Position numbers and translations under genes: made by a program. The notes under the pieces were generated by a model, which saw nothing but the letters and a program-made list of their open reading frames with translations, ran no database searches and was not told the DNA's origin. From Synergistaceae bacterium (GTDB lineage: Bacteria > Synergistota > Synergistia > Synergistales > Synergistaceae), in the NCBI GenBank assembly GCA_031258255.1, contig JAIRNC010000056.1, positions 3,428 to 67,427 on the forward strand: DNA of 64,000 nt, given 5' to 3'. Positions 9,208-11,207 of this stretch are shown here, piece by piece. How positions within the stretch are numbered: position 1 is the stretch's first letter; each line of letters opens with the position of its first letter.

Positions 9208-10275
9208 TTAGAACCAGTATTTTTCCTTCATCCTCGCCGTGATCTTGCCGAGCATGTCGAACACCTTGTCCGCTTCCGCCACGGACAACGACCCTGTGCC
9301 GCATGACGGGGAGAGGACCGCCTGTTTCGCGATGACGTTCTTGTCGAGCCCCGTCACCCCAGCCAGCTTGTCCATGTTCCTCTCCAGGATCGCCTCCAGC
9401 GAATCGACGCTCTCCTCCATTATCTTGCTGGACGTCGGCACTATCCCCCAGGCGAGGCCCCTGTCTTGGTTGATGTGGTTCTTGACCGCCTCGCCATACA
9501 GCGAGATGGTCTCCCCGAACCCGTATGCGTCGAAGTTCACCAGATCCACCCCCGCGTCGGTGAGGATGCTCCACTCCGTGTTGCCGCAGCAGTGGACGCC
9601 GGCGTAGGCGCCGTCGGCGTGAACGGCGTCGATGACCTCGGCGAGGTGCGCGACGACATCCGCGCGCTGCACCGATACGTATGTCGAACTGCCGAAGGCG
9701 GATAGGATGGGCTCGTCGATGAAGCATATGATGTTTTCGGCGTATTCCTTGAACTTCTGTATCTGCCAGCGGCATTTCATGGCGATCGCCTTGATTATGA
9801 CGTCGCGGAACTCCTCGTTGTAGTAAATGGCCCTCTTGTTCTCGTCCGTTATCGTGAGCGCGAAGCTGCACGGCCCGGTCGTCTGCACCTTGAGCCACGG
9901 CAGCTTCTTGCCGTCGGCCTTGAGCTTGCTCTCAAGGGCGTATATGCCCTTCGAGAATTCCTCCGAGATCGCCATGGAGGAACAGTCGCCGTTCCCCTCG
10001 TCAGGATCCATCGCGGCTGTGTACGCCTCATAGAAAGCCGCGAAGTCGTCGGAGTAGTCCTTCGACGTGTCAAAGTACATGCGGCCCTTGCCCTCGTCGA
10101 TCACAGCGCACGGTATGCCCTCGCTGTACTGGATCTCCATCTGCTCCTTGAGGCCGAAAGCCGGGAGCTGCGGCCAGATGGGGGAGTCCATGGACGCGAG
10201 CGACACATCAACTGCGTGTGCCGGGTCGCTATACGGCATGCTTCCGATCGCTGTGCTTAAAAACTTGGTCTTCAT
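9208..10275 (-). CDS. Short MetE-like (core-MetE / UROD-MetE superfamily) Zn-dependent thiol methyltransferase
   Basis: 355 aa from the ATG at 10275, with GGAGGTG 6 nt upstream; the track ORF starts 12 codons earlier. His-x-Cys (GVHCCGNTEW) and distal Cys (LSPSCGTGS) resemble the MetE catalytic-domain Zn ligands. There is no N-terminal MetE repeat. Confidence 0.55.
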   Translation of the reverse strand: MKTKFLSTAIGSMPYSDPAHAVDVSLASMDSPIWPQLPAFGLKEQMEIQYSEGIPCAVIDEGKGRMYFDTSKDYSDDFAAFYEAYTAAMDPDEGNGDCSSMAISEEFSKGIYALESKLKADGKKLPWLKVQTTGPCSFALTITDENKRAIYYNEEFRDVIIKAIAMKCRWQIQKFKEYAENIICFIDEPILSAFGSSTYVSVQRADVVAHLAEVIDAVHADGAYAGVHCCGNTEWSILTDAGVDLVNFDAYGFGETISLYGEAVKNHINQDRGLAWGIVPTSSKIMEESVDSLEAILERNMDKLAGVTGLDKNVIAKQAVLSPSCGTGSLSVAEADKVFDMLGKITARMKEKYWF

Positions 10276-10307
10276 TGTTCCACCTCCGATTTTTTGTCGA
10301 CAGCGGC

Positions 10308-11207
10308 TCACGCCGCCTTCTTGCCGTTATACGCGTCAACGACCTTCTTGATGGCCGTGATGTGGGCAGGCGTCGTGCCGCAGCATCCGCCGATGATGTT
10401 GGCGCCGGCCTTGATCATTGCGTCGACCCGGTCTGCCATCATCTCCGGCGTTTCAGGGAAGACGTCTTTCCCGTCCACGTTCTGGGGGAGCCCCGCGTTT
10501 GCGTGCACCAGTATCAATGCGTCCGGGTACGCGGCTTTCATGGTGCTGACGATCTCGATCATCCTCTCGAACCCGTTGCCGCAGTTAGTGCCTACGATGT
10601 CCGCGCCGGCTTCCAGCGACGCTTTGACCGCGTCCTCGGGCGAAAGCCCCATCATCGTCCTGTAGTACCCCTGGACTGTCTTTTCGAAGCTGAACGTGGC
10701 GATGACCTCCAGTTTAGTGTTCTCCTTAGCCGCCTTGATCGCGCAGCACGCCTCGTCCGCGTCGCTCATCGTCTCGATGCAGACCGCGTCCGCGCCGCCC
10801 TTTTCGAGCGCTATGGCCTGGACCTTGAACGACTCGTAAAGCTCCTCCTCCGTTACCTCCTCGGTCACCAGCATCTTGCCGGTGGGCCCTATGGACGCGA
10901 TGACGAACCTGTCCCCGGCGCCCTTCCTCGACGCGCGGGCGGCCGCCTCGTTTATCTCGGCTGCCCTGTCCTGCAAGCCGAAGTGTATCAATTTGTAATA
11001 GTTGGCCCCGAAGCTGTCTGACTCCACCATATCGGCGCCGGCGTCCGCGTAGCTCTTGGCGATGTCGACTACGTCGTCAAAACGGTCCACCGACCACACG
11101 TCCGGACATTCCCCTGCCTTCATTCCCTTCTGGTAGAGGTACGTCCCCCAGGCACCATCAGACACCAGGATCTTGCCAGTTTTGAGCACATCGACGATTT
11201 TACCCAT
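10308..11207 (-). CDS. Stand-alone homocysteine S-methyltransferase domain protein (MetH Hcy-binding module)
   Basis: 299 aa from the ATG at 11207 (GGGAGG 6 nt upstream). Motifs: DGAWGT, IETMSD, GTNCGNG, GGCCGTTPAHI (Zn Cys triad). No pterin- or B12-binding domain is attached. Confidence 0.75.
   Translation of the reverse strand: MGKIVDVLKTGKILVSDGAWGTYLYQKGMKAGECPDVWSVDRFDDVVDIAKSYADAGADMVESDSFGANYYKLIHFGLQDRAAEINEAAARASRKGAGDRFVIASIGPTGKMLVTEEVTEEELYESFKVQAIALEKGGADAVCIETMSDADEACCAIKAAKENTKLEVIATFSFEKTVQGYYRTMMGLSPEDAVKASLEAGADIVGTNCGNGFERMIEIVSTMKAAYPDALILVHANAGLPQNVDGKDVFPETPEMMADRVDAMIKAGANIIGGCCGTTPAHITAIKKVVDAYNGKKAA

What the first reader, a model, noticed from the sequence alone, without database searches (positions are those of the whole stretch)
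9208..11207. The acs operon is headed by two methionine-synthase-type thiol methyltransferases and no AcsE is visible
The first two genes of the minus-strand operon are both thiol methyltransferase types. One is a 299-aa stand-alone MetH homocysteine-binding module (GTNCGNG, GGCCGTTPAHI) with no pterin or B12 domain. The other is a 355-aa MetE-catalytic-domain-like protein (GVHCCGNTEW, LSPSCGTGS). They are followed directly by cooC, cooC, cooS, acsB-acsD, acsC and a RACo activator. No pterin-binding methyltransferase (AcsE/MeTr) and no folate-branch gene is present in the window. Short core-MetE (Mes-type) methionine synthases that take methyl groups from corrinoid proteins instead of methyl-folate have been described in anaerobes with the Wood-Ljungdahl pathway. 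The co-transcription seen here suggests methyl-CoFeSP is coupled to a thiol/thioether. That could mean methionine synthesis from CoFeSP-CH3, or in reverse, methionine or methylthiol demethylation feeding acetyl-CoA synthesis. Having two different Hcy-type modules side by side is not explained by either known scheme.
Basis: partly seen in the sequence, partly recalled or inferred. Interest (0 to 1): 0.65.

Follow-up and report, generated by a model that had tools for sequence, protein, structure and literature searches.

The report
Folate-free acetyl-CoA synthase cassette, thiol methyltransferases
A termite-gut Synergistaceae bacterium carries a compact CO-dehydrogenase/acetyl-CoA-synthase operon, shared almost unchanged by over 500 species in a dozen phyla, in which two zinc thiol (homocysteine-type) methyltransferases stand where the usual folate-linked methyltransferase AcsE would be. 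This suggests that methionine/homocysteine, not folate, carries the methyl group.

Summary
Window 10308-11207(-) encodes a 299-aa free-standing MetH-type homocysteine module (P1). Window 9208-10275(-) encodes a 355-aa single-barrel MetE-like protein (P2). They are followed by cooC, cooC, cooS, an acsB-acsD fusion, acsC and RACo. No pterin-binding or folate gene was found in the 64 kb or in the 4 kb beyond the operon.

P2 has no Pfam hit, but it belongs to the MesB/core-MetE superfamily. It is not UroD/MtaA.

The arrangement is not local. 529 species genomes in more than 12 phyla encode a close P2 relative, all uncultured among the 80 inspected. In those 80 loci the order [P1] P2 cooC cooC cooS acsBD acsC RACo is kept, and no AcsE or folate family recurs nearby.

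New here: in Synergistaceae, Christensenellaceae, Kiritimatiellota/Verrucomicrobiota and an Aminicenantes variant, an MtaC-like corrinoid protein with its own activator lies directly upstream, without an MtaA-type second methyltransferase. MtaB accompanies it in the Synergistaceae and Pontiellaceae loci, and a URO-D enzyme in Christensenellaceae.

Best reading (about 0.4): a homocysteine/methionine relay replaces methyl-folate/AcsE. Main rival: both enzymes only make methionine from methyl-corrinoids, as proposed for Dehalococcoides.

Verdict: new variant of a known kind. The direction of flow and genome-wide absence of AcsE are untested.

The parts
10308..11207 (-). P1: 299-aa free-standing MetH-type homocysteine-binding, zinc thiol methyltransferase module (S-methyl_trans)
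   Evidence: Pfam PF02574, 221.7 bits, full length. Closest solved structure is the MetH Hcy domain 1q7m at 150 bits, against BHMT at 54 and HMT at 29. Zinc cysteines C209, C275 and C276 are present. Directly upstream of P2 in 68 of 82 loci.
9208..10275 (-). P2: 355-aa MesB/core-MetE-superfamily single-barrel zinc thiol methyltransferase, and the constant head gene of the cassette
   Evidence: No Pfam hit. 35% identity and 228 bits to a Methanomassiliicoccales MesB-type protein. AF2 pLDDT 88, with MetE as best Foldseek match. S12, D187, H228, C230, D249 and C325 are invariant in 34 homologues and nearly invariant in 141 superfamily representatives. 529 species hold a close relative.
8380..9150 (-). 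cooC-type nickel-insertion ATPase (first copy)
   Evidence: CbiA/ParA/NifH-type P-loop hits. Conserved position in related loci.
7634..8383 (-). cooC-type nickel-insertion ATPase (second copy); overlaps the first by 4 bases
5636..7579 (-). cooS, anaerobic CO dehydrogenase catalytic subunit
   Evidence: TIGR01702, 623 bits, above its cut-off of 478. Prismane PF03063, 520 bits.
2162..5635 (-). acsB-acsD fusion: acetyl-CoA synthase joined to the small CoFeSP subunit by an Ala/Glu/Pro-rich linker
   Evidence: CODH_A_N, CdhC and ACS_CODH_B_C at residues 23-725, and CdhD at 848-1087. NF040764, 1036 bits; NF003376 delta-subunit subfamily, 354 bits. The same fusion occurs in most related loci.
833..2155 (-). 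acsC, large corrinoid iron-sulfur protein subunit
   Evidence: NF003195, 457 bits, above its cut-off; FeS plus CdhD domains.
2..829 (-). RACo, reductive activator of CoFeSP; N-terminal 276 aa, cut by the window edge
   Evidence: Fer2, RACo_linker and Raco_middle domains. The full 632-aa protein is seen in L090.
11208..11559 (.). AT-rich divergent intergenic region between P1 and the DUF3786 gene; presumed promoter region of the operon
   Evidence: Sequence. One weak sigma-70-like match on each strand, which is not above chance. No riboswitch.
11560..12288 (+). DUF3786 gene, divergent from P1; a recurrent neighbour of the cassette
   Evidence: PF12654, 119 bits. Found next to P1 in Synergistaceae L006-L008 and L010. 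A second DUF3786 type lies near P1 in several Bacillota, Oscillospiraceae and Treponema loci. Also present in the Aminicenantes variant L089.
12505..12688 (-). Cobalamin riboswitch aptamer pointing towards the DUF3786 gene (antisense) and the operon; whether it belongs to the operon is uncertain
   Evidence: RF00174, 85.2 bits against a gathering score of 31.5. No credible minus-strand ORF lies between it and P1. Absent in related Synergistaceae loci.

Best explanation
P1 and P2 are the only methyl-transfer enzymes of a self-contained, folate-independent CODH/ACS cassette. Together they stand where methyl-tetrahydrofolate and AcsE stand in the canonical Wood-Ljungdahl pathway.

P2 is of the MesB/core-MetE type. 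I infer that it exchanges a methyl group between the corrinoid iron-sulfur protein (AcsC plus the AcsD part of the fusion) and a zinc-activated thiol, most likely homocysteine/methionine.

P1 is a free-standing MetH homocysteine module. I infer that it does the same exchange with a Rossmann-type B12-binding corrinoid protein of the MtaC kind.

The proposed flow is a relay:
1. A substrate-specific methyltransferase loads the MtaC-like protein. This is MtaB for methanol in close relatives, and a URO-D enzyme in Christensenellaceae.
2. P1 passes the methyl group to the thiol, making methionine.
3. P2, running against its usual direction, passes it on to Co(I)-CoFeSP.
4. CODH/ACS condenses it with CO made from CO2 and with CoA, giving acetyl-CoA.

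This would give a fermenter an electron sink and extra ATP without any folate branch. Run forwards, P2 alone also makes methionine from acetyl-CoA, as proposed for Dehalococcoides.

Shown here: the family assignments, the catalytic residues, the conserved gene order, the lack of nearby AcsE or folate genes, and the adjacency of MtaB/MtaC/activator genes in several phyla.

Inferred: the partner proteins, the identity of the thiol, and above all the direction of flow.
For: Family assignments
- P1 is a MetH-type Hcy module with an intact zinc triad. It is far closer to MetH (150 bits) than to the small-molecule-donor enzymes BHMT (54) and HMT (29).
- Stand-alone modules of this kind are known to take methyl from a separate B12-binding protein: the split MetH/MtgE system (PMC12478193).
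- P2 is in the MesB superfamily, with HxC..D..C and the Ser/Asp homocysteine-binding residues conserved. MesB was predicted to partner with CoFeSP (PMC7005905, PMC7857596).

Synteny
- The order [P1] P2 cooC cooC cooS acsBD acsC RACo is kept in about 80 loci from more than 12 phyla.
- Two isofunctional enzymes would not be expected to stay in tandem that widely.

No folate link nearby
- No Pterin_bind or folate-pathway family recurs among 271 clusters of flanking proteins, in the window or past its edge.

Methylotrophic systems next door
- MtaB (about 530 bits) lies immediately upstream in the Synergistaceae loci L008 and L010-L012 and in the Pontiellaceae locus L061. An MtaC-like corrinoid protein lies upstream in L010, L013, L017, L033, L048, L050, L058 and L061. 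A second RACo-type activator was detected in most of these loci, a CobW GTPase in the Synergistaceae and Christensenellaceae ones, and a PocR/AraC regulator in the PVC loci and L017.
- None of these clusters has an MtaA- or pterin-type second methyltransferase.
- In L010 everything is co-directional, from DUF3786, MtaC and MtaB through to P1, P2 and cooC.
- The divergent Aminicenantes variant L089 repeats the theme: corrinoid protein, RACo, cooC, MesB-like, cooS, acsB and so on, with S-methyl_trans and DUF3786 nearby.

Regulation
- AraC-type regulators are the commonest flanking family, seen in 10 clusters.
- No SAM or T-box leader precedes the operon in the window or in the 15 related loci scanned. 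This looks like substrate-induced catabolism rather than methionine biosynthesis.

Feasibility (established knowledge, not tested here)
- Zn-dependent MtsA/MtpA of Methanosarcina transfer methyl from thioethers to Co(I) corrinoid proteins.
- Acetyl-CoA formation from methyl-pterin, CO2 and H2 is about -41 kJ/mol, against about +30 kJ/mol for the thioether-to-pterin level. The overall relay is therefore exergonic.
Against: - Both enzyme families have only been shown to work in the direction of methionine formation. Methyl transfer from methionine to Co(I) is strongly uphill (roughly +20 to +30 kJ/mol) and has never been shown for a MesB protein.
- The window itself has no MtaB/MtaC within 64 kb. 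Only about 11 of roughly 80 loci show such a system next to the cassette.
- About 10% of cassettes lack P1.
- Whether these genomes carry acsE, metF, metH or metE elsewhere could not be checked.
- The homocysteine-binding residues say what binds, not which way the methyl goes.
- Transcription evidence is thin: fragmentary RNA contigs of low depth.
Confidence: 0.4

Rival explanations
1. Both proteins are simply corrinoid-dependent methionine synthases, and the CODH/ACS runs in the cleavage direction. Acetyl-CoA is split, CooS oxidises the CO, and the methyl group goes from CoFeSP to homocysteine through P2, and perhaps P1. This is the folate-independent methionine route proposed for Dehalococcoides, with a CODH added. 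Where MtaB/MtaC are present, P1 makes methionine from methanol-derived methyl groups.
For: - This is the only direction shown in the test tube for core-MetE and for the MetH Hcy module, and it is thermodynamically downhill (PMC7005905).
- MesB is the sole methionine synthase in many Wood-Ljungdahl bacteria, and mesB sits with acsCD in some methanogens (PMC7857596).
- The homocysteine- and zinc-binding residues are conserved in P1 and P2.
- No AcsE or folate gene lies near the cassette.
Against: - Two, and in L002 three, enzymes would be making the same product, yet they are kept in tandem across more than 12 phyla.
- A 10-kb operon that needs Ni, Fe and Co would be spread among fermenters only to methylate homocysteine.
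- A methanol methyltransferase system, a second activator and AraC/PocR regulators are attached to it.
- No SAM or T-box control was found in the loci scanned, which include two Bacillota loci.
Confidence: 0.25
2. The organism has an ordinary Wood-Ljungdahl pathway, with acsE and the folate branch encoded elsewhere in the genome. P1 and P2 are a side branch that taps methyl-CoFeSP for methionine. 'No AcsE' then reflects only the short stretch of genome seen here.
For: - Only 64 kb, plus 4 kb beyond the operon, of this genome could be read.
- Folate-branch genes lie apart from acs genes in some acetogens (established knowledge).
Against: - In about 80 loci from many phyla no pterin-binding methyltransferase recurs within 10 kb of the cassette, whereas acsE is normally inside bacterial acs operons.
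- The cassette travels as a unit between phyla. Christensenellaceae and Oscillospiraceae copies are closer to the Synergistaceae copy (P2 73-79%, AcsB 80-85%) than other Bacillota copies are (P2 about 69%, AcsB 75-78%). A unit that needs an unlinked acsE would not move so easily.
Confidence: 0.15
3. The thiol or thioether is not homocysteine/methionine. One or both enzymes demethylate methylated sulfur compounds such as methanethiol, dimethylsulfide or methylmercaptopropionate and load CoFeSP directly, as MtsA/MtpA do for corrinoid proteins in Methanosarcina. Alternatively they use an unknown thiol cofactor as methyl carrier.
For: - Both are zinc thiol methyltransferases.
- Amino-acid fermenters such as Synergistaceae release methanethiol from methionine (established knowledge).
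- The P2 clade is a tight, separate branch of the MesB superfamily: 58% identity or more within it, 30-40% to the bulk. That leaves room for a changed specificity.
Against: [quoted passage not shown]
- P1 keeps MetH-like motifs: DGAWGT, the ET motif and GGCCGTTP.
Confidence: 0.1

Closest known systems
MesB / core-MetE methionine synthase (Dehalococcoides mccartyi CbdbA481/DET0516; Deobald 2020, Price 2021)
   Same: P2 is a single MetE-like barrel of about 345 aa without the folate-binding half. It has the same zinc ligands (His, Cys, Asp, Cys) with identical spacing (2, 19 and 76 residues) and the same Ser/Asp homocysteine residues. It is always found with AcsC/AcsD. A CoFeSP partner was predicted for MesB, and mesB-acsCD operons are known in methanogens.
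   Different: P2 belongs to a tight separate clade, only 30-40% identical to most of the superfamily. It heads a full CODH/ACS operon and is nearly always paired with a second, unrelated homocysteine module. In several lineages it is also joined to MtaB/MtaC. The characterised enzyme sits with SAM-cycle genes in an organism that has no CODH. No activity is known for the P2 clade.
Split cobalamin-dependent methionine synthase (homocysteine module MtgE / PGA1_c13370 with a separate B12 protein and pterin module; Phaeobacter, Ruegeria)
   Same: P1 is a free-standing PF02574 module of about 300 aa with the MetH zinc triad. By analogy it is expected to take methyl from a separate corrinoid protein. 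Its second-best NCBIfam match (PRK07534, 221 bits) is the alphaproteobacterial 'betaine-homocysteine methyltransferase' model; MtgE is reported to be homologous to the S. meliloti enzyme of that name.
   Different: No pterin-binding module accompanies P1. It is linked to CoFeSP/ACS genes and, in relatives, to MtaB/MtaC rather than to a MetH-type B12 protein. The hosts are strict anaerobes.
Canonical bacterial acs operon with AcsE/MeTr (Moorella thermoacetica type)
   Same: cooC, cooS/acsA, acsB, acsC, acsD and RACo are all present and recognisable.
   Different: There is no AcsE and there are no folate-branch genes in or near the operon. AcsB and AcsD are fused. Two thiol methyltransferases head the operon.
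Methanogen methylotrophic systems that use a thiol carrier (MtaB-MtaC-MtaA with coenzyme M; MtsA/MtpA methylthiol:CoM methyltransferases)
   Same: The logic of the proposed relay is the same: a substrate-specific MT1 loads a corrinoid protein, and a zinc MT2 passes the methyl group to a thiol. MtsA/MtpA show that zinc enzymes can also move methyl from a thioether to Co(I) (established knowledge). MtaB and MtaC homologues are physically adjacent in relatives.
   Different: The MT2 candidates here are of the MetH and MetE folds, not UroD/MtaA. The thiol would be homocysteine, not coenzyme M. The methyl group would end in acetyl-CoA, not methane, and no energy-coupled Mtr-like step is present.

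Membership tests
MesB / core-MetE (folate-independent core methionine synthase) | Single MetE-catalytic-type barrel of about 340 aa that lacks the N-terminal folate-binding barrel | tested here: met
   355 aa. The AF2 model (pLDDT 88) gives MetE structures as the best Foldseek matches, with TM 0.5-0.6 on the query length. No second domain is present.
MesB / core-MetE (folate-independent core methionine synthase) | Zinc ligands His-x-Cys ... Asp/Glu ... Cys | tested here: met
   H228, C230, D249 and C325 are invariant in 34 homologues and in at least 137 of 141 superfamily representatives. The spacing equals that published for DET0516: residues 214, 216, 235 and 311.
MesB / core-MetE (folate-independent core methionine synthase) | Homocysteine-binding Ser and Asp (E. 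coli MetE S433 and D599) | tested here: met
   S12 (IGSMP) and D187 (IDEP) are invariant.
MesB / core-MetE (folate-independent core methionine synthase) | Sequence similarity to the characterised enzyme (Price et al.: at least 130-173 bits to DET0516) | tested here: inconclusive
As a proxy, P2 scores 228 bits at 35% identity over its full length to a 343-aa Methanomassiliicoccales protein; that order is reported to hold only MesB. A profile of P2 homologues scores 250-360 bits to many proteins of about 345 aa.
MesB / core-MetE (folate-independent core methionine synthase) | The genome encodes CoFeSP (AcsC and AcsD) | tested here: met
   Both are in the same operon.
MesB / core-MetE (folate-independent core methionine synthase) | Methylcobalamin (methyl-corrinoid):homocysteine methyltransferase activity, with no activity on methyl-folate | not testable with these tools
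   Needs an enzyme assay.
MetH homocysteine-binding module (Pfam S-methyl_trans), stand-alone form | Full-length PF02574 domain and nothing else | tested here: met
   221.7 bits, profile 1-283 of 283, in a 299-aa protein.
MetH homocysteine-binding module (Pfam S-methyl_trans), stand-alone form | Zinc triad of Cys plus Cys-Cys | tested here: met
   C209 (GTNCG) and C275/C276 (GGCCG) align to the GINCS and GGCCG motifs of 1q7m.
MetH homocysteine-binding module (Pfam S-methyl_trans), stand-alone form | A separate B12-binding partner protein encoded nearby (as in split MetH) | tested here: inconclusive
   None in the window. An MtaC-like PF02310/PF02607 protein lies upstream in L010, L013, L017, L033, L048, L050, L058, L061 and L089. 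CoFeSP itself could be the partner.
AcsE / MeTr (methyl-tetrahydrofolate:CoFeSP methyltransferase, Pterin_bind PF00809) | A pterin-binding TIM-barrel protein in or next to the acs operon | tested here: not met
   No PF00809 hit in any scanned window ORF. Not among the genes past the window edge. Not recurrent among 271 flanking protein clusters. The rest of the genome was not testable.
UroD / MtaA-type methylcobamide:CoM methyltransferase | URO-D (PF01208) fold and sequence | tested here: not met
   P2 has no PF01208 hit and scores only 19 bits to MtbA, whose cut-off is 600. Its best fold matches are MetE, and no UroD/MtaA entry is among the 50 best matches listed.

The most novel reading that the evidence does not exclude
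In a horizontally mobile cassette present in more than 500 uncultured anaerobic species, a thiol (homocysteine/methionine) replaces tetrahydrofolate as the one-carbon carrier of the acetyl-CoA pathway. Methyl groups from methanol and other donors pass from an MtaC-type corrinoid protein to methionine (P1), and from methionine to CoFeSP (P2, a MesB enzyme running in reverse). This would let ordinary fermenters make acetyl-CoA from a methyl group plus CO2 with no folate branch and no AcsE.
Probability: 0.4. Interest if true: 0.85.

Novelty: new variant of a known kind. Interest (0 to 1): 0.7.

Why it matters
CODH/ACS genes in metagenome-assembled genomes are routinely read as 'Wood-Ljungdahl pathway', or as 'incomplete pathway' when acsE is missing. 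This cassette has no AcsE and carries a MesB-type gene that has no Pfam model and is usually annotated 'hypothetical'. It occurs in more than 500 species of gut, sediment and digester fermenters: Victivallales, Kiritimatiellales, Bacteroidales, Treponema, Christensenellaceae, Synergistaceae and others.

If it is a folate-free route from methyl donors plus CO2 to acetyl-CoA, it would be a new kind of methylotrophic, acetogenesis-like electron sink. It would also change carbon and hydrogen budgets drawn from such genomes. It would be the first case of a MesB enzyme working towards CoFeSP, and of methionine acting as a catabolic methyl carrier.

If instead it only makes methionine, it extends the Dehalococcoides-type folate-independent methionine route to a very wide range of bacteria.

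Either way, the CoFeSP-MesB link predicted in 2020-2021 becomes directly testable, because a compact operon supplies all the partners.

Tried and rejected
- Pfam on P2 gave nothing. A PDB sequence search with a 34-sequence profile gave nothing relevant. Family placement therefore had to come from an exhaustive profile search, cluster names and a pairwise comparison.
- UroD/MtaA identity for P2 was rejected.
- P1 as a small-molecule-donor enzyme (BHMT, or MmuM/HMT) was considered unlikely, because it is much closer to the MetH Hcy domain.
- A SAM, T-box or B12 leader upstream of P1 was looked for and not found, in the window or in the 15 related loci scanned.
- The promoter and terminator scans gave counts no higher than in shuffled sequence.
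- Expression: no RNA run holds the window sequence or the Treponema locus. Gut RNA runs cover the Christensenellaceae locus only as thin, fragmentary contigs. That shows transcription at most, not its level.
- Literature searches for this cassette found no description of it. The terms tried were AcsE with homocysteine methyltransferase, core methionine synthase with CoFeSP, carbonyl branch with the host phyla, MtaB/MtaC with the host taxa, DUF3786, and folate-independent Wood-Ljungdahl.
- Whole-genome presence or absence of acsE, metF, metH and metE in cassette genomes could not be tested, because only 10 kb on each side of a hit can be fetched.
- Two MesB-like relatives outside the P2 clade (L086, L087) are singletons away from acs genes, so they say nothing about the cassette.

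
Full report
**What is in the window**

A tight minus-strand operon runs from about 11.2 kb to the window start. Its genes are:
- P1, 10308-11207, 299 aa
- P2, 9208-10275, 355 aa
- two cooC genes, 8380-9150 and 7634-8383
- cooS, 5636-7579
- a 1157-aa acsB-acsD fusion, 2162-5635
- acsC, 833-2155
- the start of RACo, 2-829

Gaps between genes are 57 nt or less, and two pairs overlap or abut. A DUF3786 gene lies divergently upstream at 11560-12288. The window comes from a termite-gut metagenome, and the closest relatives are Synergistaceae genomes assembled from metagenomes.

**P1**

- P1 matches Pfam S-methyl_trans from end to end (221.7 bits) and has no other domain.
- Among solved structures it is closest to the homocysteine domain of T. 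maritima MetH (150 bits). Betaine-homocysteine methyltransferase scores 54 and the S-methylmethionine enzyme 29.
- The zinc cysteines C209, C275 and C276 are in place.
- Its best NCBIfam matches are the homocysteine half of YitJ-type fusions and PRK07534. PRK07534 carries the name 'betaine-homocysteine methyltransferase'; the free-standing homocysteine subunit (MtgE) of split cobalamin-dependent methionine synthases is reported to be homologous to the S. meliloti enzyme of that name. That subunit is thought to take methyl from a separate B12 protein (PMC12478193).
- P1 is therefore a MetH-type module whose expected methyl donor is a methyl-corrinoid protein, not a small molecule.

**P2**

- P2 has no Pfam hit. 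It gives only a weak NCBIfam match to the archaeal core methionine synthase (40 bits against a cut-off of 258), and 19 bits to MtbA.
- A profile of 34 homologues finds no relevant PDB sequence.
- An AlphaFold model (pLDDT 88) has MetE structures as its best Foldseek matches.
- An exhaustive profile search finds 484 clusters at E below 1e-30, mostly proteins of about 345 aa. One of these clusters, 343 aa long, is from Methanomassiliicoccales. That order is reported to hold only MesB (PMC7857596). P2 is 35% identical to it over its full length (228 bits).
- The residues S12, D187, H228, C230, D249 and C325 are invariant in the P2 clade and almost invariant in 141 superfamily representatives. The spacing of the zinc ligands equals that published for the Dehalococcoides enzyme.
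- P2 is thus a member of the MesB/core-MetE superfamily and not a UroD/MtaA enzyme. It forms a tight clade of its own: 58% identity or more inside it, 54% to an Aminicenantes variant, and 30-40% to the bulk.

**No AcsE in reach**

- None of the 47 ORFs scanned, which are most of those in the 64 kb, matches Pterin_bind, MTHFR, FTHFS or FolD.
- Another assembly of the same organism shows that acsC is followed by RACo (632 aa), an 81-aa ORF, a His-rich 110-aa ORF and a PocR/AraC regulator.

**The operon is a widely shared cassette**

- A scan of one genome per species found 529 species with a close P2 relative. The 80 kept are 67-93% identical to P2.
- The hosts include Synergistaceae, Christensenellaceae, Oscillospiraceae and other Clostridia, Victivallales/Lentisphaeria, Kiritimatiellales, Verrucomicrobiota, Bacteroidales, Cytophagia, Treponema/Spirochaetales, Planctomycetota, Omnitrophota, Acidobacteriota, Fibrobacterota, Chitinivibrionales and Coriobacteriales. 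All of the top 80 are uncultured.
- The order [P1] P2 cooC cooC cooS acsB-D acsC RACo is kept throughout.
- P1 is directly upstream of P2 in 68 of 82 loci. Several of the others are cut by contig ends, and true P1-less cassettes are about 10%.
- Christensenellaceae and Oscillospiraceae copies are closer to the Synergistaceae copy than other Bacillota copies are, which points to transfer between phyla.
- Among 271 clusters of flanking proteins, no pterin-binding or folate-pathway family recurs. AraC-type regulators are the commonest neighbours.

**The new clue: methylotrophic systems next door**

- Immediately upstream of P1-P2 lies a corrinoid methyltransferase system in the following loci: Synergistaceae L008 and L010-L013, Christensenellaceae L017, and Kiritimatiellales/Verrucomicrobiota/Pontiellaceae L033, L048, L050, L058 and L061.
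- Its components are MtaB (about 530 bits to Pfam MtaB) or a URO-D enzyme, an MtaC-like B12-binding protein, a second RACo-type activator, a CobW GTPase, a small His-rich protein and a PocR/AraC regulator. Not every locus shows every component.
- In L010 the whole array runs in one direction, from DUF3786, MtaC and MtaB through P1 and P2 to cooC.
- A more distant Aminicenantes locus (L089) has the order corrinoid protein, RACo, cooC, MesB-like, cooS, acsB, cooC, acsD, acsC, RACo, and then a second corrinoid protein. S-methyl_trans and DUF3786 lie 8 kb upstream. Again there is no AcsE.
- None of these clusters has the usual second methyltransferase (MtaA, or a pterin-binding MT2).

**Interpretation**

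Known work predicts that MesB takes methyl groups from CoFeSP to make methionine (PMC7005905, PMC7857596). That explains P2. It does not explain the following:
- why an unrelated second homocysteine module is kept next to P2 across phyla;
- why methanol-type methyltransferase systems with their own activator attach to the operon;
- why the regulators are of the substrate-sensing AraC/PocR kind, with no SAM or T-box leader.

The reading that uses every gene is a relay:
1. MT1 (MtaB and others) loads the MtaC-like protein.
2. P1 moves the methyl group to homocysteine.
3. P2 moves it from methionine to Co(I)-CoFeSP.
4. CODH/ACS makes acetyl-CoA.

The P2 step is uphill. Zinc enzymes that move methyl from thioethers to Co(I) are known, however (MtsA/MtpA; established knowledge), and the overall reaction is exergonic. 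I rate this at about 0.4. I give 0.25 to the methionine-only reading, 0.15 to an ordinary pathway with acsE elsewhere, and 0.1 to a different thiol or thioether substrate. The partners, the identity of the thiol and the direction of flow are all inferences.

**Limits**

- The window itself has no MtaB/MtaC.
- Only about 11 of roughly 80 loci show one next to the cassette.
- Genome-wide gene content could not be examined.
- Expression evidence is limited to thin RNA contigs over one related locus.
- Literature searches found no description of this cassette, but the searchable library is incomplete.

**Verdict**

This is a new variant of a known kind (the MesB-CoFeSP coupling), and it comes with a testable and potentially important mechanism.

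Noticed in passing
window 12505-12688 (-): A strong cobalamin riboswitch aptamer (RF00174, 85 bits) with no credible ORF downstream on its strand. It points into the 3' end of the DUF3786 gene (antisense) and, 1.3 kb further on, towards P1. It could drive a B12-controlled antisense RNA or a long leader, or it could be a remnant. It is absent from related Synergistaceae loci.
   Followed up: partly
window 2162-5635 (-): AcsB and AcsD are fused into one 1157-aa protein through an Ala/Glu/Pro-rich linker of about 100 residues. The fusion is present in most cassette loci but is split in the Phycisphaerae, Planctomycetota and Aminicenantes variants. The AcsD part passes the NCBIfam delta-subunit subfamily NF003376 but fails the canonical WLP_AcsD model.
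   Followed up: partly
window 11560-12288 (+); also L006-L008, L010, L042, L060, L066, L072, L080, L087, L089: DUF3786 proteins are recurrent neighbours of P1 in several phyla. In L087 the domain is fused to the Fe-S domain PF04060, which also opens AcsC. A full-text search turned up no paper on its function.
   Followed up: partly
L090 4936-5529 (same organism, just beyond window position 1): After RACo come an 81-aa ORF, conserved after RACo-type genes in L010 and L012, and a 110-aa protein with a long His-rich tail (HSHTHSHGG...HAHTHSHAHGH). The tail suggests a metal chaperone. Similar small His-rich proteins sit before P1 in the Kiritimatiellota and Verrucomicrobiota loci.
   Followed up: no
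L088 (Treponema sp. R8-4-B8) 9081-12767: P1, P2 and two cooC genes are present, but the cooS, acsBD and acsC genes are replaced by unrelated genes. This is either a decayed cassette or a rearrangement.
   Followed up: no
L003/L043 (Phycisphaerae) 9031-9840: A SAM-dependent methyltransferase (Methyltransf_11/25) sits directly before P2 inside the operon. The S-methyl_trans gene there is only 43% identical to P1 and lies on the other strand.
   Followed up: no
L048 3984-4056 (-): An AdoCbl-II riboswitch precedes a TonB-dependent receptor gene pair next to the PocR/AraC, MtaC, RACo, P1, P2 cluster. B12 uptake genes are therefore linked to the cassette in this Verrucomicrobiota genome.
   Followed up: no
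window 56001-58600: G+C drops to 0.49, against about 0.61 elsewhere. Few long ORFs lie between 56.6 and 58.6 kb. No tRNA or Rfam match was found there.
   Followed up: no
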